From the sequence record NC_010583.1: a stretch of 64,000 nucleotides of DNA. One strand, written 5' to 3'. The stretch is from Escherichia phage Eps7. Position numbers and translations under genes: made by a program. Positions 183 to 37,393 of the stretch are shown piece by piece. The notes beneath the pieces were generated by a model. It made no database searches. It was not told the DNA's origin and was given only the letters and a program-made list of their open reading frames with translations. How positions within the stretch are numbered: the first letter of the stretch is position 1; each line of letters begins with the position of its first letter.

Positions 183-272
183 TGGAGGAAGGTAATGGAG
201 TCGAACCATCACCATATCGCTACAGCGGGCAGGTTTTCAAGACCTGTTACATACCACTATGTCCTACCTTCC
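183..272 (-). tRNA. tRNA-Ser (anticodon UGA, type II; tentative)
   Basis: Reverse-complement T-arm (aatgg/agtcgaa/ccatc), acceptor halves ggaaggt/accttcc, anticodon hairpin caggt-tttcaag-acctg, long variable arm, encoded CCA (TGG 183-185). Confidence 0.6.
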
Positions 273-279
273 AGTTGTT

Positions 280-370
280 TGGCGGAAGAAGAGAGATTCG
301 AACTCTCAAGCCGTTTTACCAGTCAGCCACTTTCCAAGCGGTTTTCGTCACCTAATCGATTTGCTCTTCC
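280..370 (-). tRNA. tRNA, type II (possibly Ser, anticodon GGA)
   Basis: T-arm gagag/attcgaa/ctctc, acceptor ggaagaa/ctcttcc, long variable region, loop tttccaa in imperfect anticodon stem. Confidence 0.5.
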
Positions 371-544
371 GTAGATCTCAGGATTAAATCATAAACTTCA
401 TTAGCGGATACTGGAAGTATGAGATTATACATCTTTTGGTCATACCTCTGACCATACTCTATAAACACATACTCTTTAGTTAATGTATTAACAGCTAACC
501 AGATATCAGTTATAGGAGTTTTCATCATGAGTTAATCCAATGTT

Positions 545-625
545 TGGTAGGGATGGAGGGACTCGAACCCACACCCGAAGACTAGAATCTAAATCTAGCG
601 CGTCTGCCAATTTCGCCACATCCCC
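545..625 (-). tRNA. tRNA (anticodon UAG? Leu-like with short variable arm; uncertain)
   Basis: T-arm gaggg/actcgaa/cccac, acceptor agggatg/catcccc, perfect hairpin ctaga-atctaaa-tctag. Confidence 0.5.
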
Positions 626-632
626 ATTTTAT

Positions 633-851
633 TTAGTTAGAAATAAATAATAATCCCGCAACAATGGAACCTACGCCACTGAACACCATTATCAGCATAG
701 CTTCTAAGCTGATAAAGCGGACAGTATATGGAGCGCCCCAAGAATAATCAGTAAAGAAAGTTTTCTTTTCTTTAGCTAAATCTTTAACAGTTCTAAAATA
801 GATAGCTAGTGCTAAAGCTGCAAGAACTATAGAGGCTGCTAAGAATACCAT
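633..851 (-). CDS. small hydrophobic membrane protein (72 aa)
   Basis: ORF with two predicted TM-like hydrophobic stretches; position between tRNAs. Confidence 0.35.
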   Translation of the reverse strand: MVFLAASIVLAALALAIYFRTVKDLAKEKKTFFTDYSWGAPYTVRFISLEAMLIMVFSGVGSIVAGLLFISN

Positions 852-870
852 ATTATTTCCTTAATTTGTT

Positions 871-946
871 TGGTGGAGTCACTCAGAATTGAACTGAGTT
901 CCACTGCTTGCAAGGCAGTAAGTTTAACCAAATAACCTATGACCCC
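871..946 (-). tRNA. tRNA-Ala (anticodon UGC; tentative)
   Basis: T-arm ctcag/aattgaa/ctgag, acceptor ggagtca/tgacccc, anticodon hairpin actgc-ttgcaag-gcagt. Confidence 0.6.
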
Positions 947-952
947 GAATTT

Positions 953-1031
953 TGGTGGAGAATAACGGAATCGAACCGTTCTGATGTCCTCGGTGCAAGC
1001 GAGGTGTCCACTCCATGCAGACCCATTCCCC
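953..1031 (-). tRNA. tRNA (anticodon also reads UGC; identity uncertain)
   Basis: T-arm aacgg/aatcgaa/ccgtt, acceptor ggagaat/attcccc, hairpin cctcg-gtgcaag-cgagg; 7-nt variable loop. Confidence 0.5.
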
Positions 1032-1040
1032 AAAATTTAT

Positions 1041-1304
1041 TTATTCTCTATACATATCGAGAACAGTTGCTACAATCTGAGCTTCTAGCCTAGCAATATC
1101 TTTATTCACTATATCAGATTCTACTACTAAGTGATTATATATTGCTTCAGTTTTAGCAAGATCTACATCAGATAGTTTATTAAGACTATTATAATACTTA
1201 GCATTATTGCAACGTTTCTTCATATCGGAAACTCGTTTATGGAGTGTTCTTTGTTGATAACGTTGTGACATTAGTTTCTTAGCCATATCTTTCAGATCAA
1301 ACAT
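1041..1304 (-). CDS. hypothetical protein (87 aa)
   Basis: ORF downstream of a ~230-nt leader from the promoter cassette at 1545-1592. Confidence 0.4.
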   Translation of the reverse strand: MFDLKDMAKKLMSQRYQQRTLHKRVSDMKKRCNNAKYYNSLNKLSDVDLAKTEAIYNHLVVESDIVNKDIARLEAQIVATVLDMYRE

Positions 1305-1544
1305 GGATATTCCTTCTAGTTTACTAAGGCTATTAGCTCGGTGTGCGTATTACCCTCAGACATTAGCCAGTAGAGGATAATCGCTCTTCACAAACCCGAT
1401 ACACTATTCAGTTGCCGCTGAATCTAGCGGACTAATCTAGAACTTCTCCCGAGTCGTAGGGATCGTGCTTTTTTGGCAGCCAGTCCTAGGTCGAGCTAAT
1501 ACCTTAGTGAACTTTGATGAGGATTTCTCCTCATCAATTTATAT

Positions 1545-1592
1545 AAATATTATAACAAGAAATTAAGCATCAAGCAAGTACATTTTTAGCGA
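1545..1592 (-). promoter_or_regulatory. T5-type early promoter cassette (sigma70-like)
   Basis: On minus strand: A-rich UP, -35 CTTGCT, 17-nt spacer, -10 TATAAT, conserved leader ATTTATATAAATTGATGAGGAG. Confidence 0.55.
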
Positions 1593-1929
1593 TTTCTTGT
1601 AGTTCCTTAACGTCGCTAACGAAAAGGTAATCAGAGCTTCCAGAGTGCATACTCTGCATAACCACACCACCATCCGGTGCATCTTCTTTCAGTGTGATAC
1701 CTAACCAGAACTCGGCAAAACTAGGTGTTACCTCACCTTGACTTGCCTTGAACACATCGCCTTCTGTGATCTCTTGACCAGTGGAGAGTCCCATGTATGG
1801 TACGTTCAGATCAATATCTTTGTAGAACTCAGCTAGATCTTGCTCGAAATCCCAACCTTTAGAGATAGCGAACTCCATTGTTACATGACCGAAATAGCCT
1901 TGAACCTTGCTTGATAATTGCATTTGCAA
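1570..1929 (-). CDS. hypothetical protein (119 aa)
   Basis: ORF, protein-like composition. Confidence 0.5.
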   Translation of the reverse strand: MQMQLSSKVQGYFGHVTMEFAISKGWDFEQDLAEFYKDIDLNVPYMGLSTGQEITEGDVFKASQGEVTPSFAEFWLGITLKEDAPDGGVVMQSMHSGSSDYLFVSDVKELQEIAKNVLA

Positions 1930-1948
1930 TTCCTTATTTTGAGTTAAT

Positions 1949-2021
1949 TGGTACTCGGTGATAGAATCGAACTATCGCAACCGCCGTGTAAAGACGGGGT
2001 TCTCCCATTAAACTAACCGAG
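1949..2021 (-). tRNA. tRNA-Val (anticodon UAC; tentative)
   Basis: T-arm gatag/aatcgaa/ctatc, acceptor actcggt/accgagc, anticodon arm ccgcc-gtgtaaa-gacgg. Confidence 0.55.
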
Positions 2022-2026
2022 CAATT

Positions 2027-2104
2027 TGGTGGATTGCCTGGGATTCGAACCCAGAACTGACGGATTAAAGGTCCGCTACTCTTATCCAGTTGAGCTAGCA
2101 ATCC
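2027..2104 (-). tRNA. tRNA (anticodon not resolved; possibly Lys UUU)
   Basis: T-arm ctggg/attcgaa/cccag, acceptor ggattgc/gcaatcc perfect; anticodon arm ambiguous. Confidence 0.5.
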
Positions 2105-2490
2105 AATTTTTCTACTAATAATTTAAAAGCATCTAGTACAGGTACTTCAAACCATTCTCCAGATACTCTATAATCTTTAAGAAGATTATGTAATTCTTTC
2201 TCTGTACGTCTTTTATCCGACGAAAATCTGAAATGGTATAGCTTGTAGTCTCTATTAGGTGAATAAGTTTGATAACTTGTTAACCTCTCATTCACATCTA
2301 TAGTCATACCTATTTTATACATGCCTGGCCATGCTGGATTACCAATTACATATACAAAACCTTCCGTTATAGGTATTTTATGCTCCCTTTTATACTTTAA
2401 GAGATTTAAGGCTGCCATTCGATAACAGAATCTAAACTCTGAAGTTTTTAACTTACCTTCTTTACCTGAAATTTCGTTATATTTGCTCAT
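2095..2490 (-). CDS. GIY-YIG-like (T5orf172-type) domain protein
   Basis: Motifs GFVYVIGNP...YKIGMT...R...Y...E resemble the GIY-YIG/T5orf172 nuclease fold; embedded in tRNA cluster. Confidence 0.5.
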   Translation of the reverse strand: MSKYNEISGKEGKLKTSEFRFCYRMAALNLLKYKREHKIPITEGFVYVIGNPAWPGMYKIGMTIDVNERLTSYQTYSPNRDYKLYHFRFSSDKRRTEKELHNLLKDYRVSGEWFEVPVLDAFKLLVEKLDC

Positions 2491-2556
2491 ATAAGCTCTT
2501 ATGAGCTTATCATCTATAATGAAGTTATCAGGAAGGTTTAAGGCAGCTAAAAACTT

Positions 2557-2721
2557 TATTAATTAGCATAGACTTCCTTAATAGAATAAACTTTTAAGTT
2601 AAGGTGATTAATACCAAATTCCGCCATCACTTCGTTTTCATCTTTACCGTAATGGGCTAGTGGATACTTCTTACGATCTTTGCTAGAACGTAGATCACTT
2701 ACTTTTAAACGAAATAATTTC
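2557..2721 (-). CDS. hypothetical small protein (54 aa)
   Basis: ATG-initiated ORF MKLFRLKVSDLRS... found by manual translation; below the 60-aa ORF-track cutoff. Confidence 0.3.
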
Positions 2722-2743
2722 ATTTCGAAATCCTTCTATTAAA

Positions 2744-2820
2744 TTGGAAGCGGGTGCAGGAATCGAACCTACCTCTTTCTAGCTTATGAGACTAGCGATC
2801 TCTACCAGAGATCTAACCCG
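2744..2820 (-). tRNA. tRNA with CAU anticodon (Met or Ile-lysidine; tentative)
   Basis: T-arm gcagg/aatcgaa/cctac, acceptor agcgggt/acccgca, anticodon arm ctagc-ttatgag-actag. Confidence 0.55.
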
Positions 2821-2827
2821 CAATTGT

Positions 2828-2906
2828 TTGGTCTCCGTGGGAGGATTTGAACCCCCCGACCCTATCGCCCCAAACGAAACGCTCTGGCCAAACTGAGCTA
2901 CACGGA
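2828..2906 (-). tRNA. tRNA-Pro (anticodon UGG; tentative)
   Basis: T-arm ggagg/atttgaa/ccccc, acceptor ctccgtg/cacggag perfect, D-arm gctc...gagc, loop ccccaaa. Confidence 0.55.
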
Positions 2907-2934
2907 GAATATTCTTTGTTAACTCACTTTATAA

Positions 2935-2992
2935 ATATATTATACAGAGAATTAAGCTAAATAGCAACTACATTTTTAATAAATTTACTTAT
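2935..2992 (-). promoter_or_regulatory. T5-type early promoter cassette driving tRNAs at 2744-2906
   Basis: RC shows -35 GTTGCT, spacer, -10 TATAAT, conserved leader; tRNA begins about 30 nt downstream. Confidence 0.55.
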
Positions 2993-3212
2993 TAGGTAAG
3001 TCACCGAGCTATCAACTCATGCTAGCGAAAGTTTGCGAGACCTTCTTTAAGTACTAGAACACACCCGCCGATGTGTCGGACTTACTTAATAAGTAAACTT
3101 TCGTTTACTTACACCTACCTGGTCGGGAGGATTTTCAGCGACTAGAACCGGCCGGAAACTCATCGCCTTGTTTATCTAGGAGTCCGTTCTCTAGGAAGCA
3201 GAAACCTAAATT

Positions 3213-3287
3213 TGGTGCGGTCGGAGGGAATCGAACCCTCAACTTCTGGTTGGCAACCAAAAAATTATACCTTTTAACTACGAACGC
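3213..3287 (-). tRNA. tRNA-Gly (anticodon GCC; tentative)
   Basis: T-arm gaggg/aatcgaa/ccctc, acceptor gcggtcg/cgaacgc, anticodon arm tctgg-ttggcaa-ccaaa. Confidence 0.55.
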
Positions 3288-3295
3288 ATAATAAG

Positions 3296-3500
3296 TCAAT
3301 CTAGGCAGGACTTGAACCTGCTATCACTTGTGCGGATTTACGAGAACCATTCTTTCACTCGAATCGAACGAGCTTCTACCCTCGGCAAGCTGGTGTCCCC
3401 TCTCCACCACGCTAGAATGATAATTAATGCCTGCTCCTTTGAATCAAGAAGTCCACCCCGGACTTTGGGTCTTTGCAGTACATCACGCTGCTCTGATGTT
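3296..3500 (-). other. tRNA-like elements (T-arm hairpins without complete cloverleaf); possible tRNA pseudogenes or small ncRNA
   Basis: Two strong T-arm-like hairpins (gcagg-acttgaa-cctgc at 3306-3322; actcg-aatcgaa-cgagc at 3357-3373) but no matching acceptor stem found by eye. Confidence 0.3.
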
Positions 3501-3576
3501 TGGTACACCCACTAGGACTTGAACCTAGAACCCTCCGCTTAAGAGGCGGTAGCTCTAACCATTGAGCTATGGATGT
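3501..3576 (-). tRNA. tRNA (possibly Lys, anticodon CUU)
   Basis: T-arm ctagg/acttgaa/cctag perfect, D-arm gctc...gagc, acceptor acaccca/tggatgt, loop ttaagag. Confidence 0.5.
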
Positions 3577-3654
3577 ATTATTATGTTTTGCAGTGCTCTA
3601 AATATAGACACTTCCCACGCGGTGGTTATCTATACCAGCGTCCTGCAAAAATTG

Positions 3655-3731
3655 GCGCGACCGATGGGATTCGAACCCACATTTTCTCCCGTGACAGGGG
3701 AGTACCATTACCAAGCCAGCCCCGATCGCAT
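3655..3731 (-). tRNA. tRNA-Asp (anticodon GUC)
   Basis: T-arm atggg/attcgaa/cccac, acceptor gcgaccg/cgatcgc, perfect anticodon arm ctccc-gtgacag-gggag. Confidence 0.65.
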
Positions 3732-3752
3732 AATTTATTTACTCAGTTTTGA

Positions 3753-3936
3753 GTTTTTCGATAGCTTCCTCAACCTCTTTTAGAGCTTCACGACGGGCAT
3801 TCTGTTGCTGCATATCTTGAATTAATGTCAGTTTTTGTTTTTAATTTCTTGATCCCAAACCTTAATATTATTAATCAGACTATCACGATCAGCTTCTAGT
3901 CGAGCAATTGCACGAGTTGTCATATCTATTTCCTCA
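3753..3936 (-). CDS. hypothetical small coiled-coil protein (about 60 aa, apparent frameshift)
   Basis: Two short adjacent ORFs (MTTRAIARLEADRD... and ...MQQQNARREALKEVEEAIEKLKTE) join across an A5CA5 tract; manual translation only. Confidence 0.25.
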
Positions 3937-4025
3937 GTTATTAATGAAAATGGTATCTGTGACTGAATTCAATATCAGTAATGATAGCTGGTTGGCTACC
4001 GGTTTACTTAACTCTACACAGAATA

Positions 4026-4108
4026 TGGCGGGCCGTGTAGGATTCGAACCTACGTTGTCTTTCGACATGGATTAACAGTCCACCGCCAAACCGCTTGGCT
4101 AACGACCC
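4026..4108 (-). tRNA. tRNA with 13-nt variable arm; anticodon reads GUU (Asn?)
   Basis: T-arm gtagg/attcgaa/cctac perfect, acceptor gggccgt/acgaccc, anticodon arm atgga-ttaacag-tccac, variable hairpin gtc-tttc-gac. Confidence 0.5.
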
Positions 4109-4115
4109 TAAAATT

Positions 4116-4191
4116 TGGACGACCGCATGAGATTCGAACTCACATAAGGAGGTTTTGCAGGCCTCCGCCTAAGCCATTCAGCCAACGGTCG
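4116..4191 (-). tRNA. tRNA-Cys (anticodon GCA; tentative)
   Basis: T-arm atgag/attcgaa/ctcac, acceptor cgaccgc/acggtcg, anticodon arm gaggt-tttgcag-gcctc. Confidence 0.55.
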
Positions 4192-4369
4192 AGTTATCTT
4201 GCTTTTCGAGATTAGTAAACTCTAGATCTTTAGAATGTCCTATAGATCTAGCATAATAGCCATCTCCAGCATCATAGCCTGACTTACCACACTCACACAT
4301 CTTAAACTCTCTATAACGAGTGAAAATATGTTCAGAACCACAACACTTAAATTTAACTAACATTTTCAT
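4178..4369 (-). CDS. Cys-rich small protein (63 aa), putative zinc ribbon
   Basis: KFKCCGSEH...CECGKSG cysteine pattern; 3' end overlaps tRNA by about 14 nt. Confidence 0.4.
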   Translation of the reverse strand: MKMLVKFKCCGSEHIFTRYREFKMCECGKSGYDAGDGYYARSIGHSKDLEFTNLEKQDNSTVG

Positions 4370-4608
4370 TTAACACGCTCCGGTAAATCTTCGAGTTTAT
4401 ATTGAGTAGCCACATTAGCAGCATCTAGTAACAAACCCATATGTTTAAGAATCCTAGTGATAGCTTCGCCTTCTGCTTCTTCTACAAAAGTGCGTAGTTG
4501 AATGAAGTCAATACCACCATCCATACCAGAGAAAATGTTAAGTAAGCGAAGCATTACCAGCTTACGTTCTTTTAATTCTTGTTCTGCCATGTTGCTTCTC
4601 CAGTTCAA
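4366..4608 (-). CDS. hypothetical protein (80 aa)
   Basis: ORF directly downstream of promoter cassette 4625-4672; ATGA overlap with next gene. Confidence 0.45.
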   Translation of the reverse strand: MNWRSNMAEQELKERKLVMLRLLNIFSGMDGGIDFIQLRTFVEEAEGEAITRILKHMGLLLDAANVATQYKLEDLPERVK

Positions 4609-4624
4609 TTTATGTAATAATTAT

Positions 4625-4672
4625 ACAGAACTTTAAGGATTTAAGCAACTACATTTTTCAGAAATTTGATGC
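4625..4672 (-). promoter_or_regulatory. T5-type early promoter cassette
   Basis: RC: -35 GTTGCT, -10 TATAAT, conserved leader. Confidence 0.5.
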
Positions 4673-4928
4673 CTTTCTTTTTCTTCTTATACTTCCACGT
4701 TAATGGATTCTGTCGATTATGAACGCTTGAGATCTTTGTCTCGTCAAATTTCTTCAATACCATGTAATCACACGCCAACTGCTCTAGTGGAATGGTTTCT
4801 CCATCAAAAGCATAAACATAAGGCTGTTGACTAGCACGATAATGATAGACTTTGTTAACTCTACGTTTCAGCGACTTATCCGCGCAGTAAATAAAGAAGT
4901 TTTCAGGATGCATCAGCATCTCCTTCAA
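4641..4928 (-). CDS. hypothetical protein (95 aa)
   Basis: ORF; lysine-rich C-terminus overlaps the downstream promoter cassette. Confidence 0.4.
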   Translation of the reverse strand: MKEMLMHPENFFIYCADKSLKRRVNKVYHYRASQQPYVYAFDGETIPLEQLACDYMVLKKFDETKISSVHNRQNPLTWKYKKKKKGIKFLKNVVA

Positions 4929-5011
4929 ATTGGTGCAACCTGTACGTAACGATCGTACCTCTTCTCCTTTTCAGGGAGACGCTAATCCATCTCAGCTAAA
5001 GTCGCAAATAT

Positions 5012-5088
5012 TGGCAAACCTACTAGGACTCGAACCTAGACCGTACGGTTTTGGAGACCGACATGCTGTCCAGTAACACTCTAGGAAT
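5012..5088 (-). tRNA. tRNA-Trp (anticodon CCA; tentative)
   Basis: T-arm ctagg/actcgaa/cctag perfect, anticodon arm acggt-tttggag-accga; acceptor pairing imperfect. Confidence 0.5.
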
Positions 5089-5096
5089 GCAGAAAT

Positions 5097-5172
5097 TGGC
5101 GTCCTGTGCGGGGATCGAACCCGCAAATCCTACCTTGAAAGGGTAGTGACTTTACCAGTTTGTCTAACAGGA
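5097..5172 (-). tRNA. tRNA-Glu (anticodon UUC)
   Basis: T-arm gcggg/gatcgaa/cccgc, acceptor gtcctgt/acaggac perfect, anticodon arm ctacc-ttgaaag-ggtag perfect. Confidence 0.65.
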
Positions 5173-5180
5173 CTTAAATT

Positions 5181-5271
5181 TGGTGTTGGATGATGGAGTC
5201 GAACCACCCGAGACCCTTCCGAGTCGGCAGATTTACAGTCTGCTTCGCTACCTCTACGATACTAATCCAAC
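5181..5271 (-). tRNA. tRNA-Tyr (anticodon GUA, type II)
   Basis: T-arm gatgg/agtcgaa/ccacc, acceptor gttggat/atccaac perfect, anticodon arm gcaga-tttacag-tctgc perfect, long variable arm. Confidence 0.65.
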
Positions 5272-5416
5272 ATATTTGAATGAAAAATAAGTCGGTTAAA
5301 CTCAAGGTGGAATATTTCAGGAAATCCTGACTTTACCCCTAAAAGCAACTCGCTTAGTTACTTCTCATTCAGATATGTTTTCCAAATTAGATAACTATTA
5401 TATCAAGTTTTGAAGG

Positions 5417-5452
5417 ACTGAGCAAGTCAAATTTTAAAGAACTTGCTCAGTG
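5417..5452 (-). terminator. intrinsic terminator hairpin (11-bp stem)
   Basis: actgagcaagt ... acttgctcagt inverted repeat immediately downstream of the 5462-5737 gene. Confidence 0.45.
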
Positions 5453-5461
5453 CTATATCAG

Positions 5462-5737
5462 TTACTCGAAGCTAGGAGTGACACTCAGTTTGAATGGAAG
5501 CTCGAACACTTCTTCATAATCATCATTGAGCGTAATTACACGACCTTCTAGCTTAGTCATGGTGATTTCGATATCAGCCTCTGCATCAGGAGCCATACCA
5601 GCTTCCACACATTTAGCTTTGACTTCCGGCAGAAGTTCTACATCGTAGAAATAAAGCCATTCAATCTCACCTTCCCAGCCACCCCAGGATTTACAAACAG
5701 CACTTTCAACACCAGTTGCAGTAACACGTTTTGACAT
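5462..5737 (-). CDS. hypothetical protein (91 aa)
   Basis: ORF downstream of promoter cassette 5775-5815. Confidence 0.5.
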   Translation of the reverse strand: MSKRVTATGVESAVCKSWGGWEGEIEWLYFYDVELLPEVKAKCVEAGMAPDAEADIEITMTKLEGRVITLNDDYEEVFELPFKLSVTPSFE

Positions 5738-5774
5738 TCGTTAACTCCTTCATCAATTTATATAACTATTATAG

Positions 5775-5815
5775 CAGAAATCTTAAGTAAAAAGCAAGTA
5801 CATTTTTAAAATTTC
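5775..5815 (-). promoter_or_regulatory. T5-type early promoter cassette
   Basis: RC: -35 CTTGCT, -10 TATAAT, conserved leader. Confidence 0.5.
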
Positions 5816-5827
5816 TGCTTGGAGGAG

Positions 5828-6034
5828 TTAAACTCCTGATTCTTCAGCCAGATCAAGCCCAACCAACGTGATTGCCATAATAGCCGCGCCATGTTCTTTC
5901 TCTCCTAGCTCTTTGGCTTGAGTGAGAATATTTAGGAACTGCTTTTGAAAATCTGCAACTTCTTCTGTCATGCCTGCTTCAGCAATAATTCCTTTCAGCA
6001 TAAAGCGTTGTGCCGTAATTTCAGGATTAGCCAT
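5828..6034 (-). CDS. hypothetical protein (68 aa)
   Basis: ORF. Confidence 0.45.
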   Translation of the reverse strand: MANPEITAQRFMLKGIIAEAGMTEEVADFQKQFLNILTQAKELGEKEHGAAIMAITLVGLDLAEESGV

Positions 6035-6185
6035 TTATTATCTCCAGTTATTTAGAATGTAAGCCAAACTTAGGATCATAGCGATCGTAAGTCGTACCAT
6101 TAGTTGAAGCCTTGATGCTATGAAAACGACAGTACATAAATTTACGTAGTGCTTTCTTAATAGCTTTCATTTTATTTCCTTAATT

Positions 6186-6262
6186 TGGTAGGGGTGGTGG
6201 GATTCGAACCCACAAAACCTGAATTTTAAGTCCAGTACCTATGCCAATTCGATTACACCCCC
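6186..6262 (-). tRNA. tRNA (anticodon reads UAA, Leu-like but type I; uncertain)
   Basis: T-arm gtggg/attcgaa/cccac perfect, acceptor aggggtg/caccccc, anticodon arm ctgaa-ttttaag-tccag. Confidence 0.5.
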
Positions 6263-6280
6263 ATGTAATCTTAGCGAATC

Positions 6281-6603
6281 TCTAAACCCTGGAAATATCG
6301 AGGGAATGGAGAGCCAACTTCAAAATTGATGCCCCAATTAAGTTCAACGAGTTCAGATTTATTAAGATCTAGGCCATTACCTTCAAAGATATAGCCGTAA
6401 ACCGCAGGGAACATAGCTGCTAGATCTTCCATATCGGAATGAGCATTGTGTTCTTCACGGAACTGCTCAACTCTTCAATAGAACTTTTCTAGGAGACTCA
6501 GGTACGATGAACGTTACCACATCAGTAGAATCATCGGTACGATACACCGTAGCTTGGAACAAGCCAACACCTAAAAGGTTTATTGCCGGAGTAGTAAAAA
6601 TAT
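6281..6603 (-). CDS. hypothetical protein (about 107 aa, apparent +1 frameshift near 6470)
   Basis: Two sub-threshold ORFs (MDIFTTPAINLLG... and ...EQFREEHNAHSDMEDLAAMFPAVYGYIFEGNGLDL...) in adjacent frames. Confidence 0.3.
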
Positions 6604-6608
6604 CCATC

Positions 6609-6794
6609 TTAGCCTCGCTCAATGTCTAGACAAATTGCATATTCAGGGTTGATACCAGTACCTTTACATGTAGGACATTCCCATTCTCTACAGAAAATAT
6701 CCCCAGGTTCTGCATCATCCTGCCTACCACTACCATGACAGTCCTTACACCGACATTCTTCTAATGCTTTCTTCATTTCATAGAATCTAGACAT
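6609..6794 (-). CDS. DnaJ-type zinc-finger mini-protein (61 aa)
   Basis: Two CxxCxGxG motifs (CKDCHGSG, CPTCKGTG) plus additional Cys pairs. Confidence 0.45.
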   Translation of the reverse strand: MSRFYEMKKALEECRCKDCHGSGRQDDAEPGDIFCREWECPTCKGTGINPEYAICLDIERG

Positions 6795-6811
6795 ATAGTC
6801 TCCTAGTTAAT

Positions 6812-6889
6812 TGGTGGCTCCCGGAGGATTCGAACCTACCTACCTTTCGCTTATGAGGCGACGGCTCATACCAAATGAGCTTGAGAACC
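6812..6889 (-). tRNA. tRNA with CAU anticodon (Met or Ile-lysidine; tentative)
   Basis: T-arm ggagg/attcgaa/cctac, D-arm gctc...gagc, anticodon arm ttcgc-ttatgag-gcgac. Confidence 0.55.
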
Positions 6890-6894
6890 AAATT

Positions 6895-6988
6895 TGGAGG
6901 AAGATGCCAGATTCGAACTGGCACACCGTGTCTCCACAGCTACTGGCTGTTTAGCAAACAGCTCCCTTACCTTTAGGGTTAATCTTCC
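6895..6988 (-). tRNA. tRNA-Ser (anticodon GCU, type II)
   Basis: T-arm gccag/attcgaa/ctggc perfect, acceptor ggaagat/atcttcc perfect, anticodon arm gctgt-ttagcaa-acagc perfect, long variable arm. Confidence 0.65.
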
Positions 6989-6999
6989 GAATTTATGAA

Positions 7000-7045
7000 T
7001 ATATTATACAGAAAATTTCGGCATTAAGCAAGTGAAATTTTACTG
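7000..7045 (-). promoter_or_regulatory. T5-type early promoter cassette driving tRNAs at 6812-6988
   Basis: RC: -35 CTTGCT, -10 TATAAT, conserved leader. Confidence 0.5.
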
Positions 7046-7336
7046 AACATTGCACTGATATACTTGTTTGATACGTGTCACTGACTTCTTAGTTGGGTTG
7101 ATAGAAGAACCCTGCCACCAACGTGATTCTGAGCTGAGAACAGCCCCAGGAACAGCTTGTTCTTTTGGCAGAACAATATCAAAACACTGTTCACCCATAT
7201 TATCTTTAATGTGCGACCAAATGTCTAGAGTAAATCGTTCTAGCTTATTACAAACTTGAACTTGACAAAGTTCCTGTTGTGGAGCAGCAAATACAGAAGT
7301 AGATACTAGAGTCAATGCAAGTACAATGCGTTTCAT
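7040..7336 (-). CDS. secreted/periplasmic protein with signal peptide (98 aa)
   Basis: MKRIVLALTLVSTSVFA signal peptide then Cys-containing mature part; the ORF-track MREESN prefix is read-through of the conserved leader. Confidence 0.5.
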   Translation of the reverse strand: MKRIVLALTLVSTSVFAAPQQELCQVQVCNKLERFTLDIWSHIKDNMGEQCFDIVLPKEQAVPGAVLSSESRWWQGSSINPTKKSVTRIKQVYQCNVQ

Positions 7337-7362
7337 ATTTGATTCCTCTCTCAAATTTATAA

Positions 7363-7400
7363 ATATATTATACAGAAATTTTCTATATAAGCAAGGTAAA
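7363..7400 (-). promoter_or_regulatory. T5-type early promoter cassette
   Basis: RC: -35 CTTGCT, 17-nt spacer, -10 TATAAT, leader ...TTTGAGAGAGGAATCAA then ATG. Confidence 0.55.
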
Positions 7401-7436
7401 AATTTATGTATATAGCCCTCTAAGCGAGGGCTATAA
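7398..7436 (-). terminator. intrinsic terminator
   Basis: Hairpin tatagccctc-taagc-gagggctata followed on the minus strand by a U-run. Confidence 0.5.
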
Positions 7437-7441
7437 CTACT

Positions 7442-8134
7442 TTATTTGTTAACGCGTACAAAGTATCCTTTATAGGCTCCCATAATAGAGTTACCTAAGA
7501 ATACTAGCCACATTGCTAGGATTGCATAAGATGCACCTGTAGATTGAGCAGTTACAAGCCAAATGTACACAGTACCAATGTTAATAGCAATCCAAATCAG
7601 CCATTGTTCAGCATATTGTTTGACCATAAGCCACATAGCAATCACACTACCTACCGCAGTAAATGCATCCAACATTGGGAATGGATCAGCCGTAGTAGCA
7701 AGGAAACTACCATAACCTAACGTGGCTACTGCTAAAATCCCTAGAGTCAGCAAAGCTTGAGCTTTTGTCAGAACTTTAGTTGGAACATCCGGCAGATTAC
7801 TTGGCTTATTTTTATGCCATAAGTACATTCCATAAAACTGCATAGGAACGTAGTATAGCAGGTTTAGTGCAGCGTTACCATAAAGATCTGCGTTTAAAGC
7901 TGTAATACCATATGTAAGAACACCCACTAAGCCCCAAATATAGTTGGAAACACGTCCTTTTGCAACCAGAATAACACAAACCACATTGGTTATTGCAGTA
8001 GCCCAATCTAGAGCTGTACCATTATAGTTTGCTAAACTAATAAAGGCGACTGCTATAAACAGCCACAGATATTCCAGAGGTTTCCAGTTTTTAAAGTCAT
8101 TTACGAGATAGTTAGTCATATTAAAACTCTCCAA
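7442..8134 (-). CDS. pnuC: nicotinamide riboside transporter PnuC-like membrane protein
   Basis: 230-aa polytopic membrane protein; GMYLWHK and VKQYAEQWLIWIAINI match PnuC signatures GWYAW and RKYVENWLLWVIINV. Confidence 0.65.
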   Translation of the reverse strand: MESFNMTNYLVNDFKNWKPLEYLWLFIAVAFISLANYNGTALDWATAITNVVCVILVAKGRVSNYIWGLVGVLTYGITALNADLYGNAALNLLYYVPMQFYGMYLWHKNKPSNLPDVPTKVLTKAQALLTLGILAVATLGYGSFLATTADPFPMLDAFTAVGSVIAMWLMVKQYAEQWLIWIAINIGTVYIWLVTAQSTGASYAILAMWLVFLGNSIMGAYKGYFVRVNK

Positions 8135-9176
8135 AGATAAAGTGATGAATCAGCCAGTCTACTGCGTTTACTGCTTCGTCCATACGAACTTTGTAGTCCG
8201 GAGAGTCGATGTAAACAGTACGCCCTTCAGGGAACTGATTTGGAAATTCTTTCTTCATCTGCTCGAACAGTTCAGAAGTAATTGAACGATCGGAGTTAAT
8301 ACGTAAACCATCATCTACCCACTTGACAGTAGGCGCTAGAACAATTACTAAATCGTAATGTTCTTCTTTTGCAATTGCTGTAACCACAGGGTTCTTACTA
8401 TGTTCATAAAGTCTGTGGTAGAACTCAGTAATAAAAGCATTTGTATCCACAAACATGATCTTATTTGCAGTACGTTTTGCTTCAAACTCTAGCTCTTTGT
8501 GTCTGAACGCAATTTTACTATAGTCTTCGCTGGTAAGCAGATTTTCGTTACCAACTAGATCAACTTCACAATACGTTCGGCCATATTCTTTTACCCACGA
8601 AGTGTTGTATAGCTTCGCAAGGTATTTTGTTAAAGTAGTCTTTCCTGAGCTTTCAGTCCCAATGATTACAACCTTACGCACGTAATCTTTACGAACTACG
8701 CTAGGAAGAAACTCCCAATACTTCATAAGATCATTACGAATCATTGTAGCTGAGATTGGAACACGAGTCCGATCAGAATCTACAATATAATGACCAAACT
8801 TCGGCAGATATTTCTTATATTCTGCATCATAGTCTAGTTCGCTAGAGAAAATGGTGATCTCAGGCAAATGTCCGTAATTTTCATTAAGGATTCTAGCATA
8901 TTCCGGCCAACCATTCGGATATTCAGGAATATCATCTTCAATAATGTACTCTACCGAAATGTGCTCAATATCCGCGTAAGTTTGTTCTAACCAACGAAGT
9001 CGATTCTTTAACTGTAATACTTCCTGATCACGTGTGTTCTGCTTATCCAGCCAACGATTATCATGACTAACTACAACAATAACTCGTTCACACATAGTTG
9101 CTGCTGTGTTTATTAGGTTAATATGACCACGCGTTAATGGCGCGAACTTACCAATTACTAGACCAGTCTTAATCAT
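8121..9176 (-). CDS. nadR: NadR-like bifunctional NMN adenylyltransferase / ribosylnicotinamide kinase
   Basis: N-terminal nucleotidyltransferase motif GKFAPLTRGH (HxGH), C-terminal P-loop GTESSGKTT; true start MIKTGL (track MREESN prefix is leader). Confidence 0.65.
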   Translation of the reverse strand: MIKTGLVIGKFAPLTRGHINLINTAATMCERVIVVVSHDNRWLDKQNTRDQEVLQLKNRLRWLEQTYADIEHISVEYIIEDDIPEYPNGWPEYARILNENYGHLPEITIFSSELDYDAEYKKYLPKFGHYIVDSDRTRVPISATMIRNDLMKYWEFLPSVVRKDYVRKVVIIGTESSGKTTLTKYLAKLYNTSWVKEYGRTYCEVDLVGNENLLTSEDYSKIAFRHKELEFEAKRTANKIMFVDTNAFITEFYHRLYEHSKNPVVTAIAKEEHYDLVIVLAPTVKWVDDGLRINSDRSITSELFEQMKKEFPNQFPEGRTVYIDSPDYKVRMDEAVNAVDWLIHHFIFGEF

Positions 9177-9202
9177 ATTTGATTCCTCTCTCAAATTTAT
9201 AA

Positions 9203-9250
9203 ATATATTATACAGAGAATTTAGCGTTCAAGCAATCGAATTTTTAAACT
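9203..9250 (-). promoter_or_regulatory. T5-type early promoter cassette (drives nadR-pnuC)
   Basis: RC: -35 ATTGCT, -10 TATAAT, conserved leader with GAGAGAGGAATCAA RBS. Confidence 0.55.
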
Positions 9251-9384
9251 TTTTAGTGGAAAAATCTCAAGGCATTTAGTGGTAGCACGTTGTTGCTACA
9301 ATAATAGTATATGTATTACTAAAGTAAATAAAGAATTAAATACTAAAGACCTTAGTTGAATAACTTATGGGCTTTTCTTTTGCC

Positions 9385-9428
9385 TTAAATACAGAAAAGC
9401 CCGCGCTCTCGGAGGAAACGCGGGCTTG
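9385..9428 (-). terminator. intrinsic terminator (possibly bidirectional)
   Basis: GC-rich hairpin aagcccgcg...cgcgggctt with flanking T/A runs. Confidence 0.5.
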
Positions 9429-9546
9429 GTTCGAAGATTACGTGTAACTATTACTTGTTACGCATATCCATGATCATTTGACCATCGTAGCCAGTACCAA
9501 CAACAGTCTGCGGTACACCACCTTGTATTTTTCAGCACGAAGCATT

Positions 9547-10395
9547 TCAAACTTCCAGCTGCTTCCAACGAATCATTTCAGGAGTAATGGTACGTTGCAG
9601 CGCGGCGTTAGCTTCAGCTTCTTTCTTAGCTGCGTACAGTTTAGCATCTGCGTCACGTTCGTTAGCTACTGCCATGTTTTCACGAGCAGAACGATCAGCT
9701 TCAGCTTGCTTAACTTTCTGCTGTGCTTCTTGTTCAACACGAGCCAATTCAGCTTTAGCGGCGTTAACTTGTTCTTCACGAACTTTTGTGTTTTGTACCT
9801 GTTCCATGATTACAGGTGGCAGAGTAATATCCTGAAGGAATACTTGCTTAACCGTGTAACCATAAGGACGCGCGTACTCTTCTACTTCTTGCTGAATAGC
9901 AGTTTGCAGTTGAGCCTGAATCTTAGCGTCGAACAGATCTTGTGCTTTTGGTACAGACTTACCAAACTCACGAATCGTAGATAGCATCTTCTCTTCAACG
10001 TACTTGTTCAGAGCTTGATCCTGAGTACCTGCGTTAACACGGTTCATAGGAGCTTTAGCACCATCAAACTGCAACATAACGGTAATGTCAACAGTGGACT
10101 TAAACTTATCCTGGCTAGGAACCTGAAGTTTATCCAGTTTCATGGAAATATCTTTCGTACTAAAAGTATCAAAAGAAGCAAATGGGTTAACAATATGGAA
10201 GCCTGGCAATACAGGATTAGGGCTAACTTTACCCAGGAAGGTTTGGGTCTTAACAGTACCATCCTGAACAACTGTGTAGGAATTGAGAGCCAGAATAAGA
10301 GCGCCAAGACCAACTACAGCACCAACACCCCAACGTTTGATAGTGCGAATTACTTTTTGCTCAGAAGTCAGTTCTTTAGTGTTTTTAGTAAACAT
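9547..10395 (-). CDS. SPFH/band-7 (stomatin/prohibitin/HflC-like) domain protein; C-terminus probably extends to about 9451
   Basis: N-terminal TM segment, SPFH-like core, Ala/Glu/Gln-rich coiled-coil tail; two in-frame stops within 30 nt flanking an open alternative frame. Confidence 0.6.
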   Translation of the reverse strand: MFTKNTKELTSEQKVIRTIKRWGVGAVVGLGALILALNSYTVVQDGTVKTQTFLGKVSPNPVLPGFHIVNPFASFDTFSTKDISMKLDKLQVPSQDKFKSTVDITVMLQFDGAKAPMNRVNAGTQDQALNKYVEEKMLSTIREFGKSVPKAQDLFDAKIQAQLQTAIQQEVEEYARPYGYTVKQVFLQDITLPPVIMEQVQNTKVREEQVNAAKAELARVEQEAQQKVKQAEADRSARENMAVANERDADAKLYAAKKEAEANAALQRTITPEMIRWKQLEV

Positions 10396-10406
10396 ATATT
10401 TCCTTA

Positions 10407-10607
10407 TTATTTAGAAGAGTTAGCTACTACAGTTACTTTAGTTGCAGAAATAAACAGGCTAGCATCCACAGCAAATTCAGGAGCTTTGATATCTCCATTA
10501 TGAAATATGACTATACCGGAGACTACTTCAAATGCTAGTGCTGTAACATCGGTGGTATTTACTTGTGAATGTTCACCTACTACTTTTACTATATATCGTG
10601 TTTTCAC
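10407..10607 (-). CDS. NfeD-like short OB-fold protein (66 aa), partner of SPFH protein
   Basis: Beta-rich 66-aa protein (YIVKVVGEHSQV...) immediately upstream of and co-oriented with the SPFH gene. Confidence 0.4.
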   Translation of the reverse strand: MKTRYIVKVVGEHSQVNTTDVTALAFEVVSGIVIFHNGDIKAPEFAVDASLFISATKVTVVANSSK

Positions 10608-10633
10608 TTTATTTTCCTAGCAGTTAATAAAAT

Positions 10634-10709
10634 TGGCCGAGGTGACAGGATTCGAACCTGCATAAAGGAATTTAGAAGACTCCTGCCTATCCCTTAGACT
10701 ACACCCCGT
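10634..10709 (-). tRNA. tRNA-Arg (anticodon UCU; tentative)
   Basis: T-arm acagg/attcgaa/cctgc, acceptor cgaggtg/caccccg, anticodon arm ggaat-ttagaag-actcc. Confidence 0.6.
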
Positions 10710-11791: not shown

Positions 11792-11838
11792 TAATTTATG
11801 AATCTATTATACAGAATTTTGGAACGTTTAGCAAATCA
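11792..11838 (-). promoter_or_regulatory. T5-type early promoter cassette driving the ORF-free region and tRNA-Arg
   Basis: RC: -35 TTTGCT, -10 TATAAT, conserved leader start; no ATG or RBS follows. Confidence 0.5.
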
Positions 11839-27462: not shown

Positions 27463-27829
27463 ATGAAGAACGTAAGACATCTTAAATATCGCTTAATTTA
27501 CAACGGACGTATGGAAACAGAAGATCTAGCTCAGCTAGCGATCAATTCAGATGAAGTTACGGTTCGTGCTTTATCTATTGAGAAGCTGCGTGCTTCTTAC
27601 GAAAATCGTATTATGGAACTGGAGGAGAAACTGTATGGACTTCTTGAATCAGAATCTAAAAAATAATCTAGAAAACATGCTTATGGAGCAGTGGAACTCT
27701 GGGTATAATGCTGGGGTGGCTACTTGTATTGCGGGGTTGGATATGCTTATTAAGCAAGAAAAGGTACGTCCAGAAGAAGCAATTCTACTCCAAAATATCA
27801 TCGAAGGATTCAAGCAAGGAATCGTATAA
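27463..27829 (+). CDS. hypothetical protein (about 121 aa; apparent frameshift at A6 tract 27658-27663)
   Basis: ORFs 27463-27666 and 27551-27829 join in-frame if the A6 run is read as A5. Confidence 0.4.
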
Positions 27830-28643
27830 TGCGTAGACTAATCGTTGTTAGTGGTGCAGGTTTGAGTGTAGATAGTGGTGTTCGTGCTTTCCGTACTGAT
27901 ACTGCTAGTGGTAAAGCGTTGTGGGATGATTATGACCTAGAAGAGGTATGTAATATTCATGCCTTTCGTGGTAATTTTACCATAAAACTCATATGTTTTA
28001 CAACAAACGTCGTGAAGAGTTACAAACTGTTGAACCTAACCTAGCTCATTTGCGTATTGGTGAATGGTATAAACGGTATCCAAATCAAGTGGTAAACCTT
28101 ACTACCAATGTTGATGATCTAATCGAACGTGCTGGAGTGCCGAGAGAAGATATACTCCATATTCATGGATATCTGAAAGAAATTATTGTAGAGCATGCGT
28201 TCGACCAGACACGTGATGTTATTGATATTGGGTATAGTTCTATTGATCCAGATGACTTTGATTGGGTTAAACCTAACGTTATCTTCTTTGGTGAGGTTGC
28301 TCCTGCCTATAAAACAATGTATGAGGTTTTTGATGGTATCACCAGTCATGATATGATCATCATTGTTGGGTGCTCTAACCAAGTAATTAACTTCTACTGG
28401 GAGCTATTTCCTGTTCTGAATCTTACTGCTGCAAAACTTATGGTAGTTAACTATTACGATAGTGCAGTAGCTATGGAACCAGGCTATCAGGGCATGACTC
28501 GTAGTGAAATGTATCAGTTAGAAGAACGTGGTATTCCTTACTGGAGTAAAGGTGCTGTGGATGCCTTTAGTGATCCCGATTTTATTGCTCGTGTGGAAGC
28601 TCATCTAGAAGGTAAACCCTATGTTCAACAAAAGCATGTGTGA
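27829..28643 (+). CDS. Sir2 (sirtuin)-like NAD-dependent protein (frameshifted at A4 tract 27984-27987)
   Basis: N-terminal GAGLSVDSGVRAFR (compare sirtuin GAGIS.ESGI..FR), central NVDDLIERAG...ILHIHG, later IIIVGCSN; two ORFs in adjacent frames. Confidence 0.55.
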
Positions 28644-28803: not shown

Positions 28804-28969
28804 GGGTATCTGGAAAGGTCTAGTATGGTTTGTCAACCTAATCGGTATGATTACCATTTATTCTCTGTTCCTATCTGTTATGTGGGGTAAAGGTGAATTG
28901 AAGGTTCCAGTTCCTTTTACTGATGAAGTTAAAGTCTGGACGTGGGATGCTACTGGTGGAAATAAGTAA
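28784..28969 (+). CDS. small membrane protein (61 aa)
   Basis: MVKKIFKGIWKGLVWFVNLIGMITIYSLFLSVMW hydrophobic helix; AAGGAGGGAG RBS. Confidence 0.45.
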   Translation: MVKKIFKGIWKGLVWFVNLIGMITIYSLFLSVMWGKGELKVPVPFTDEVKVWTWDATGGNK

Positions 28970-33931: not shown

Positions 33932-33960
33932 TTGCTTTCAGGAAAAATTTTCTGTATAAT
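33932..33960 (+). promoter_or_regulatory. T5-type promoter (TTGCTT, 17 nt, TATAAT)
   Basis: Conserved leader ...ATAAATTTGAGAGAGGAGTTTAAAT then ATG at 33992. Confidence 0.6.
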
Positions 33961-33991
33961 AGATTCATAAATTTGAGAGAGGAGTTTAAAT

Positions 33992-37363: not shown

Positions 37364-37393
37364 ATTTATATAAATTGATAAGGAAGAAATTTG

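What the first reader, a model, noticed from the sequence alone, without database searches (positions are those of the whole stretch)
7442..9176. Phage-encoded NAD+ salvage pair: PnuC-like transporter plus NadR-like NMN adenylyltransferase/ribosylnicotinamide kinase
Two co-transcribed early genes look like PnuC (nicotinamide riboside uptake) and the enzymatic part of NadR (HxGH nucleotidyltransferase motif TRGH plus a P-loop kinase domain GTESSGKTT), without NadR's HTH repressor domain. Together they could turn nicotinamide riboside into NMN and NAD+. Rebuilding NAD+ from scavenged precursors would let the phage counter host defences that deplete NAD+ (Thoeris, DSR, TIR/SEFIR, Sir2-based systems). 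The pathway chemistry here (NR to NMN to NAD via NadR/PnuC) differs from the Nampt- or Adprs-based phage pathways I am aware of.
Basis: partly seen in the sequence, partly recalled or inferred. Interest (0 to 1): 0.65.

Follow-up and report, generated by a model that had tools for sequence, protein, structure and literature searches.

The report
Known phage NAD+ salvage pair (NARP3)
This T5-like phage carries a transporter and an enzyme that rebuild NAD+ from scavenged nicotinamide riboside; the pair is real, but a near-identical pair was characterised and published in 2026 as the anti-defence pathway NARP3, so it is not new.

Summary
On the minus strand, 8121..9176 encodes a 351-aa NadR-type enzyme. 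It has the adenylyltransferase domain (TRGH, ISATMIR) and the kinase domain (GTESSGKT) but no HTH. One base downstream, 7442..8119 encodes a 225-aa PnuC-type transporter. Both pass curated family cut-offs.

The window is a T5-like phage (Demerecviridae, Epseptimavirus). The pair lies behind a T5-type early promoter and between two hairpins.

The two proteins are 347/351 and 224/225 identical to Bas30_86 and Bas30_87 of Escherichia phage TrudiRoth. Yan et al. (Sci Adv 2026, PMC13464706; PDB 9X6H, 9X6F) named that pair NARP3. They showed NR import, NR to NMN to NAD+ conversion, and rescue of phages from Sir2-HerA and DSR1 NAD+ depletion. Every residue that paper names or mutates is conserved here. 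Osterman et al. (2024) had already proposed the idea.

The pair occurs in 208 phage records, most already annotated nadR/pnuC, and is absent from T5 itself.

Still open: no knockout has been tested in a native phage. The phage's own NAD+-using enzymes (an NAD-dependent ligase and a Sir2-like gene) may also benefit.

Novelty: already known. Interest: low.

The parts
9397..9427 (-). Intrinsic terminator ending the upstream SPFH/band-7 gene; it marks the upstream boundary of the unit
   Evidence: 12-pair stem with 7 G-C pairs, followed by TTCTGTATTT. It is conserved in phage TrudiRoth apart from one loop base.
9207..9235 (-). T5-type early promoter: -35 TTGCTT (9235..9230), 17-nt spacer, -10 TATAAT (9212..9207)
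   Evidence: One search gives the coordinates. One search shows it is nearly identical to the annotated T5 promoter P15a and fits the consensus of 11 annotated T5 promoters. One search finds the motif 14 times in the window against 0 in shuffles, always in the local direction of transcription. The generic sigma-70 scan does not list this hexamer pair, because TTGCTT matches only 3 of 6 positions of TTGACA.
9183..9192 (-). Ribosome-binding site GAGAGAGGAA, 6 nt before the nadR ATG
   Evidence: Read directly from the sequence. It belongs to a 43-nt block that recurs exactly at 7334..7376.
8121..9176 (-). nadR-like gene: 351-aa bifunctional ribosylnicotinamide kinase / NMN adenylyltransferase without an HTH (ortholog of Bas30_86)
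   Evidence: Family matches. It is 347/351 identical to Bas30_86 and to PDB 9X6F/9X6H (E 1.4e-238). All 17 residues named in the paper are conserved.
8697..9176 (-). NMNAT (adenylyltransferase) domain, about aa 1-160, with TRGH (aa 15-18) and ISATMIR (aa 141-147)
   Evidence: PF01467 matches aa 7-147. The alignment to H. influenzae NadR (1LW7) is.
8235..8675 (-). Ribosylnicotinamide kinase (P-loop) domain, aa 168-314, with Walker A GTESSGKT (aa 173-180)
   Evidence: PF13521 AAA_28 matches aa 168-314 at E 2e-31.
7442..8119 (-). pnuC-like gene: 225-aa nicotinamide riboside transporter (ortholog of Bas30_87)
   Evidence: PF04973 and TIGR01528 both score above their cut-offs. It is 224/225 identical to Bas30_87 and matches N. 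mucosa PnuC (4QTN) at E 8.7e-33. N45, Q94 and N180 are conserved. A 17-residue hydropathy scan returned nine partly overlapping hydrophobic windows, about 7 distinct segments when merged.
7411..7435 (.). G+C-rich hairpin directly after pnuC; a terminator-like downstream boundary
   Evidence: a 10-pair stem. The tool's T-tail criterion is met on the + strand only; on the - strand the tail is TACATAAATTTTT. The hairpin is conserved in TrudiRoth.
7334..7394 (-). Second copy of the same promoter/RBS cassette (TTGCTT, 16 nt, TATAAT, RBS), driving the next gene (98-aa secreted protein, 7040..7336). It flanks the pair as a direct repeat.
   Evidence: the 43-nt block at 7334..7376 is identical to 9174..9216, with 0 such matches expected by chance.

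Best explanation
This is a copy of the phage NAD+ reconstitution pathway NARP3, in a T5-like (Epseptimavirus) phage.

Early in infection, host RNA polymerase reads a T5-type promoter and makes one mRNA for both genes. The PnuC-like membrane protein lets nicotinamide riboside (NR) from the medium into the cell. The NadR-like enzyme lacks the repressor HTH of bacterial NadR. Its C-terminal P-loop kinase domain phosphorylates NR to NMN. Its N-terminal nucleotidyltransferase domain adenylates NMN to NAD+, again using ATP. This refills the NAD+ pool when host defences such as Sir2-HerA or DSR1 hydrolyse NAD+, so the phage can finish replicating.

Shown here: gene identity, domain content, near-identity to the characterised proteins, conservation of all functional residues, and the operon anatomy. 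Shown in the literature for the 99%-identical ortholog: NR binding, both enzyme steps, dependence on external NR, and rescue from Sir2-HerA and DSR1. Inferred: that this works in the native phage, and that transcription is early.
For: Family membership sits above curated cut-offs.

The proteins are 347/351 and 224/225 identical to Bas30_86 and Bas30_87 of phage TrudiRoth. The NadR-like protein matches the crystal-structure chains 9X6F/9X6H at E 1.4e-238.

The four NadR differences (K196E, K234E, I347N, F348V) and the one PnuC difference (A25V) avoid every residue the paper names or mutates. Those residues are K10, F11, S37, E80, P84, G89, F110, S112, D115, V139, I141, K163, D164, R167, K168, E230 and D275 in NadR, and N45, Q94 and N180 in PnuC.

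Codon differences from TrudiRoth are mostly synonymous: 15 synonymous against 4 non-synonymous in nadR, and 20 against 1 in pnuC. This fits purifying selection.

PMC13464706 reports the following. Bas30_87 is trimeric and binds NR with a Kd of about 0.66 uM. Bas30_86 converts NR to NMN to NAD+ in vitro. Both genes together restore NAD+ and NADH depleted by EcSir2-HerA or AbSir2-HerA and restore T7 and lambda plating by 10^3 to 10^4-fold. The pair also counters DSR1. Rescue depends on NR, with an EC50 of 3.6-5.6 uM.

Operon anatomy: a 1-nt gap between the genes, a T5 P15a-like promoter upstream, and hairpins on both sides.
Against: Nothing was measured for this particular phage. By the authors' own statement, NARP3 has not been tested in a native phage context; all rescue data come from plasmid expression with unrelated phages.

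The pathway cannot recycle the NADase products (nicotinamide and ADP-ribose). It needs external NR, so its benefit depends on the environment.

The hosts already have their own pnuC and nadR.

The hairpin after pnuC meets the tool's terminator rule only on the opposite strand. Promoter-like hits from the generic scan are not above chance in this region (5 found against 8.6 expected).
Confidence: 0.9

Rival explanations
1. The pair mainly serves general metabolism, not counter-defence. It raises NAD+ supply for the phage's own NAD+-consuming enzymes and for the high replication demand of a 110-kb lytic phage. Any protection against NADase defences is a side benefit.
For: The same window encodes an NAD-dependent DNA ligase at 36220..37191 (PF01653 E 3e-23, PF03120 E 9e-22), with a BRCT-bearing downstream part. 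It also encodes a Sir2-family protein at 27829..28643 (PF02146 E 1.8e-14). Relatives annotate the same genes. Iyer et al. (PMC9503650) list NadR among phage NAD+ synthesis genes found in medium-sized and jumbo phages. No native-phage knockout phenotype has been reported.
Against: T5 itself has no nadR/pnuC at the syntenic slot, and about half of T5-like records lack the pair. The phage can therefore do without it, which is more typical of an accessory counter-defence gene than of a core supply function. Whether T5 itself carries the ligase and Sir2 genes was not checked here. The ortholog does rescue phages from Sir2-HerA and DSR1. The two readings are not mutually exclusive.
Confidence: 0.25
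2. The genes are passive cargo recently picked up from a bacterial host, inactive or irrelevant in the phage.
For: nadR and pnuC are ordinary bacterial genes, and the hosts (Salmonella, E. coli) carry both.
Against: The PnuC scores far below the enterobacterial PnuC subfamily model (NF011926: 67.8 bits against a cut-off of 335). The best solved bacterial NadR match (H. influenzae 1LW7) scores 189 bits against 794 for Bas30_86. So this is not a recent host capture. The pair is conserved at 90-99% nucleotide identity in 198 of the 208 matching phage records, with mostly synonymous change and intact motifs. It has a phage-type promoter. The ortholog is active.
Confidence: 0.02

Closest known systems
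NARP3 (Bas30_86/Bas30_87 of Escherichia phage TrudiRoth; Yan et al., Sci Adv 2026, PMC13464706; PDB 9X6H, 9X6F)
   Same: Same gene order, the same 1-nt junction, and the same promoter and flanking hairpins. The proteins are 98.9% and 99.6% identical. All named functional residues are identical. Both phages belong to the genus Epseptimavirus.
   Different: There are four substitutions in NadR (K196E, K234E, I347N, F348V) and one in PnuC (A25V), none at a studied site. An 11-nt indel lies in the untranslated region upstream of the promoter. There is no functional difference to expect.
Bacterial NadR (E. coli/Salmonella trifunctional NadR; H. influenzae NadR, PDB 1LW7)
   Same: It has an NMNAT domain with the (H/T)xGH and ISxTxxR motifs, followed by a P-loop ribosylnicotinamide kinase domain. 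NF005988 scores above its cut-off. It aligns to 1LW7 over aa 3-339 at E 1.1e-54.
   Different: There is no N-terminal HTH repressor domain (the model match starts at position 65), so it has no regulatory role. The first His of HxGH is Thr (TRGH). It is encoded next to pnuC, whereas in E. coli the two genes lie at separate loci. It scores below the TIGR01526 trusted cut-off (270.5 against 341.15).
PnuC nicotinamide riboside transporter (Neisseria mucosa PnuC, PDB 4QTN; Pfam PF04973)
   Same: It is a full-length match to the family and has multiple hydrophobic helices. The ortholog is trimeric and binds NR.
   Different: It is shorter (225 aa against 244 aa). It lies far from the enterobacterial PnuC subfamily (NF011926: 67.8 bits against 335). 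The paper reports three rather than four NR-coordinating residues.
NARP1 (Adps + Namat) and NARP2 (Nampt + Nmnat), Osterman et al. 2024
   Same: They have the same purpose: two-gene phage operons that rebuild NAD+ to escape NAD+-depleting defences.
   Different: The substrates and enzymes differ. NARP1 recycles ADPR plus nicotinamide, and NARP2 uses nicotinamide plus PRPP. This pair imports external NR and needs no PRPP.

Membership tests
NARP3 (phage NadR-like + PnuC-like operon) | Adjacent, same-strand NadR-like and PnuC-like genes in a phage genome | tested here: met
   The genes are 8121..9176 and 7442..8119 on the minus strand, 1 nt apart. The window is 97-98% identical in nucleotides to Epseptimavirus phages.
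NARP3 (phage NadR-like + PnuC-like operon) | The NadR-like enzyme has NMNAT and RNK domains but no HTH | tested here: met
   PF01467 matches aa 7-147 and PF13521 matches aa 168-314. The NF005988 match starts at model position 65. Only 6 codons are open upstream of the ATG.
NARP3 (phage NadR-like + PnuC-like operon) | Orthology to Bas30_86/87 with the functional residues intact | tested here: met
   Identity is 347/351 and 224/225. All 17 NadR residues and all 3 PnuC residues are conserved.
NARP3 (phage NadR-like + PnuC-like operon) | Enzymatic conversion of NR to NMN to NAD+, and NR uptake | not testable with these tools
   Shown in vitro only for the 99%-identical TrudiRoth proteins.
NARP3 (phage NadR-like + PnuC-like operon) | Restores NAD+ and phage growth against NAD+-depleting defence | not testable with these tools
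   Shown for plasmid-borne Bas30_86/87 against Sir2-HerA and DSR1. Not yet shown for any native phage.
Bacterial trifunctional NadR (NF005988) | N-terminal HTH DNA-binding repressor domain | tested here: not met
   The model match covers positions 65-406 of 411. No Pfam HTH hit was found. This is a NadR-type enzyme, not a NadR regulator; GenBank annotations such as 'NadR transcriptional regulator' are misnomers.
Bacterial trifunctional NadR (NF005988) | NMNAT domain with the (H/T)xGH and ISxTxxR motifs, plus an RNK P-loop domain | tested here: met
   TRGH at aa 15, ISATMIR at aa 141 and GTESSGKT at aa 173. NF005988 scores 254 bits against a cut-off of 201.
PnuC transporter family (PF04973 / TIGR01528) | Full-length profile match above the curated cut-off, and a multi-helix membrane protein | tested here: met
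   PF04973 scores 148 bits against 27.3, and TIGR01528 scores 121 bits against 42.45. 4QTN matches at E 8.7e-33.
Enterobacterial PnuC subfamily (NF011926) | Score above the subfamily cut-off | tested here: not met
   It scores 67.8 bits against a cut-off of 335, so it is not a recent copy of the host gene.
NARP1 / NARP2 | Adps + Namat, or Nampt + Nmnat, enzyme pair | tested here: not met
   The two proteins match NadR and PnuC families only. The rest of the phage genome was not scanned for NARP1 or NARP2 genes.

The most novel reading that the evidence does not exclude
In its native T5-like phage the cassette may not act chiefly as an anti-defence device. It could be a conditional NAD+ supply line for the phage's own NAD+-consuming enzymes (the NAD-dependent ligase and the Sir2-like protein). 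It may also move between T5-like genomes as a cassette flanked by promoters, through recombination at the repeated P15a-type promoter sequences. The published work, which used only plasmid expression, excludes neither idea.
Probability: 0.2. Interest if true: 0.3.

Novelty: already known. Interest (0 to 1): 0.1.

Why it matters
NAD+ depletion is a common bacterial anti-phage strategy, and phage pathways that rebuild NAD+ explain how some phages escape it. They could also be engineered into therapeutic phages. This window adds one more natural copy of the third such pathway (NARP3), in a group of Salmonella and E. coli phages often considered for biocontrol. It makes nothing new testable beyond the experiment the NARP3 authors already named as missing: a knockout in a native phage.

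Tried and rejected
1. The generic sigma-70 scan did not list the promoter I propose, and its hit count was at chance level. I therefore compared the region with annotated T5 promoters and counted a T5-type motif across the window (14 found, 0 expected). That settled it.

2. I considered whether the 357-aa TTG-started ORF (8121..9194) was the real gene with an extra N-terminus. I rejected this because the six extra codons are the ribosome-binding site itself (GAGAGAGGAA), relatives annotate the ATG start, and the paper's residue numbering (K10, F11) fits the ATG start.

3. I considered recent capture from the enterobacterial host and rejected it (NF011926: 67.8 bits against 335).

4. I checked a 64-aa ORF (27635..27829) that phage PSa2 annotates as 'nicotinamide mononucleotide transporter'. 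It matches only an unknown-function PHROG (phrog_5827) and its sequence shows no long hydrophobic stretch, so the annotation is probably wrong and there is no second transporter.

5. I did not use the large protein-database searches, structure prediction or metagenome scans. The crystal structure of a 99%-identical protein and the phage collection already answer the question, so the cost was not justified.

6. Three tool calls failed on term length. Two scripts failed because locus files were not yet synchronised. All were repeated by other means.

Full report
**What is there**

The window is part of a T5-like phage genome. The 2.6 kb around the finding is 97-98% identical in nucleotides to many Salmonella and Escherichia phages of the genus Epseptimavirus (Demerecviridae). 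The first 10.7 kb carries 21 tRNA genes, as is usual for the T5 early region.

On the minus strand, 8121..9176 encodes a 351-aa protein and 7442..8119 encodes a 225-aa protein. One base separates them (TAA-T-ATG).

**Family assignment**

The 225-aa protein matches the PnuC family over its full length. Pfam PF04973 gives E 2.9e-43, 148 bits against a cut-off of 27.3. TIGR01528 gives 121 bits against 42.45. It matches the solved Neisseria mucosa PnuC structure (4QTN) at E 8.7e-33. A 17-residue hydropathy scan returned nine partly overlapping hydrophobic windows, which I merge into about seven segments.

The 351-aa protein has an N-terminal cytidylyltransferase-like (NMNAT) domain at aa 7-147 and a C-terminal AAA_28 P-loop domain at aa 168-314 (E 2e-31). 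It passes the NCBIfam NadR model NF005988 with 254 bits against a cut-off of 201. The match starts at model position 65, so the HTH repressor domain is missing.

The second NMNAT signature, ISATMIR, lies at aa 141-147.

The longer TTG-started ORF (357 aa) adds only MREESN, which is the ribosome-binding site read as codons. There is no hidden N-terminal domain.

**Anatomy of the unit**

| Feature | Coordinates (minus strand) | Evidence |
|---|---|---|
| Terminator of the upstream SPFH/band-7 gene | 9427..9397 | 12-pair stem with a T-rich tail |
| Promoter: TTGCTT, 17 nt, TATAAT | 9235..9207 | |
| Ribosome-binding site GAGAGAGGAA | 9192..9183 | |
| nadR-like gene | 9176..8121 | |
| pnuC-like gene | 8119..7442 | |
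| G+C-rich hairpin | 7435..7411 | |

The generic promoter scan missed the promoter hexamer pair and was at chance level in this region. The sequence is, however, almost identical to the annotated T5 promoter P15a. It also fits the consensus of eleven annotated T5 promoters.

A motif built from that consensus occurs 14 times in the window and never in shuffles. Each copy points in the local direction of transcription.

So a two-gene transcription unit under a T5-type early promoter is well supported by sequence. No transcript data were available.

The hairpin after pnuC meets the tool's terminator rule only on the opposite strand. Termination there is therefore plausible but not shown.

**Already known**

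Osterman et al. (bioRxiv 10.1101/2024.02.11.579819) noted that phage NadR genes usually sit next to a PnuC gene. They suggested this operon forms a further NAD+ reconstitution pathway, and they listed BASEL-collection phages that carry it. They did not test it.

Yan et al. (Sci Adv 2026, PMC13464706) tested exactly this operon from Escherichia phage TrudiRoth (Bas30_86/Bas30_87) and named it NARP3. They report that:

- Bas30_87 is a trimeric transporter that binds NR with a Kd of about 0.66 uM.
- Bas30_86 converts NR to NMN to NAD+ with ATP in vitro.
- Both genes together restore NAD+ and NADH depleted by E. coli or A. baumannii Sir2-HerA, and restore T7 and lambda plating by 10^3 to 10^4-fold.
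- The pair also counters DSR1.
- Rescue in minimal medium depends on added NR, with an EC50 of 3.6-5.6 uM.
- They solved crystal structures of Bas30_86 (9X6H, 9X6F).

**Is the window's pair the same thing?**

I fetched TrudiRoth (MZ501109) and compared the proteins. The window's NadR-like protein is 347/351 identical to Bas30_86, and the PnuC-like protein is 224/225 identical to Bas30_87. The PDB sequence search returns 9X6F/9X6H as the top hit at E 1.4e-238.

The differences are K196E, K234E, I347N and F348V in NadR, and A25V in PnuC. None touches a residue the paper names or mutates; all 17 NadR residues and all 3 PnuC residues are identical.

Promoter, junction and both hairpins align base for base, apart from a few substitutions and an 11-nt indel upstream of the promoter. 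Codon differences are mostly synonymous (35 against 5), which fits purifying selection. This is an ortholog of NARP3, not a variant.

**Distribution**

The pair is found by megablast in 208 phage records, 201 of them at 80% coverage or more. These are mostly Salmonella and Escherichia phages, and most already annotate the genes as nadR and pnuC. Some records call the enzyme 'NadR transcriptional regulator', which is a misnomer because it has no HTH.

Flanking sequence, or the Sir2 region of the same genome type, matches 382-416 records. About half of T5-like phages therefore lack the pair.

T5 itself has other genes (T5.076-T5.079) in the slot between the SPFH-like lipoprotein gene and tRNA-Ser(GCU). 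The pair is thus accessory.

More distant NadR-like genes (25-46% identity) occur in 790 of 50,697 phage records. Their hosts include Vibrio, Klebsiella, Enterococcus, Bacillus and others.

The phage PnuC is far from the enterobacterial PnuC subfamily (67.8 bits against a cut-off of 335). It is therefore not a recent copy of the host gene.

**Mechanism and what remains inferred**

The best explanation is the published one. NR enters through PnuC. The kinase domain traps it as NMN. The adenylyltransferase domain turns NMN into NAD+. This refills the pool that NADase defences empty.

From established knowledge of PnuC and NadR, PnuC is a facilitator whose net flux depends on phosphorylation of NR by NadR. 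That fits the tight genetic coupling seen here.

The steps shown experimentally apply to a 99%-identical ortholog expressed from plasmids. The authors state that the native phage context was not tested.

A partly competing reading is that the pair chiefly feeds the phage's own NAD+ users. The window encodes an NAD-dependent DNA ligase (36220..37191 plus a BRCT-bearing downstream part) and a Sir2-family gene. The absence of the pair from T5 and from about half of its relatives argues that it is dispensable, which suits an accessory counter-defence role. The two readings can both be true.

The pathway's dependence on external NR limits it. Unlike NARP1 and NARP2, it cannot reuse the nicotinamide and ADP-ribose that the defence enzymes release.

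**Verdict**

Interest is low. The only open point of note is the missing native-phage knockout.

Noticed in passing
window 9174..9216 and 7334..7376 (minus strand): An identical 43-nt block (-10 box, leader, RBS and ATG) precedes both nadR and the next gene (98-aa secreted protein, 7040..7336), so the nadR-pnuC pair is flanked by direct repeats of a T5 P15a-type promoter. This could let the cassette be gained or lost by recombination between promoters; T5 has P15a at the same slot but no nadR/pnuC.
   Followed up: partly
window 27829..28044 and 27993..28643 (+): The Sir2-family gene is split into two overlapping ORFs in different frames (Pfam SIR2 positions 1-37 and 48-178). The closest relative, PSa2, has the same 951-nt version, annotated as two CDSs. 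Several other close relatives (about 97% identical) align over 952 nt, and some of them annotate a single Sir2 gene. This is either a real frameshift or pseudogene, or a shared sequencing error.
   Followed up: partly
window 37391..37717 and 37783..38172 (+), near 37671: The second part of the NAD-dependent DNA ligase (HhH/BRCT region) is one 259-aa CDS in Salmonella phage S116. In the window it is broken into two ORFs by a 1-nt deletion near 37671, in otherwise 99.9% identical DNA. Whether this is a sequencing error or a real truncation was not resolved.
   Followed up: partly
window 28923..29462 (+): This 179-aa protein carries a HAD_SAK_2 domain (the HAD domain of 'Swiss Army Knife' RNA repair proteins, E 2.6e-19). 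RefSeq for S116 and one PHROG label it 'Sir2 (NAD-dependent deacetylase)', which looks like annotation carry-over from the neighbouring gene.
   Followed up: partly
window 27635..27829 (+): Phage PSa2 annotates this 64-aa ORF just upstream of the Sir2 gene as 'nicotinamide mononucleotide transporter'. It matches only an unknown-function PHROG (phrog_5827) and its sequence shows no long hydrophobic stretch, so the label is probably wrong.
   Followed up: yes
whole window, 14 sites (e.g. 1536..1577, 6990..7031, 11793..11834, 33932..33973): A T5-type early promoter motif (TTGCT, 18 nt, TATAATA, ATAAATT) occurs 14 times and never in shuffles. Copies lie on the minus strand up to about 25 kb and on the plus strand from about 27 kb, matching the divergent transcription and the GC-skew switch near 24-26 kb.
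   Followed up: partly
window 183..10708 (minus strand): The window carries a cluster of 21 tRNA genes interspersed with small ORFs, including two adjacent tRNA-Ala(UGC) copies at 871..946 and 953..1031. This is typical of T5-like phages.
   Followed up: no
window 9547..10395 (-): An SPFH/band-7 family protein (PF01145, E 1.9e-19; PHROG 'lipoprotein') lies immediately upstream of the NARP3 unit. It is conserved at this position in T5 (T5.080) and relatives. Its function in the phage is unknown.
   Followed up: no
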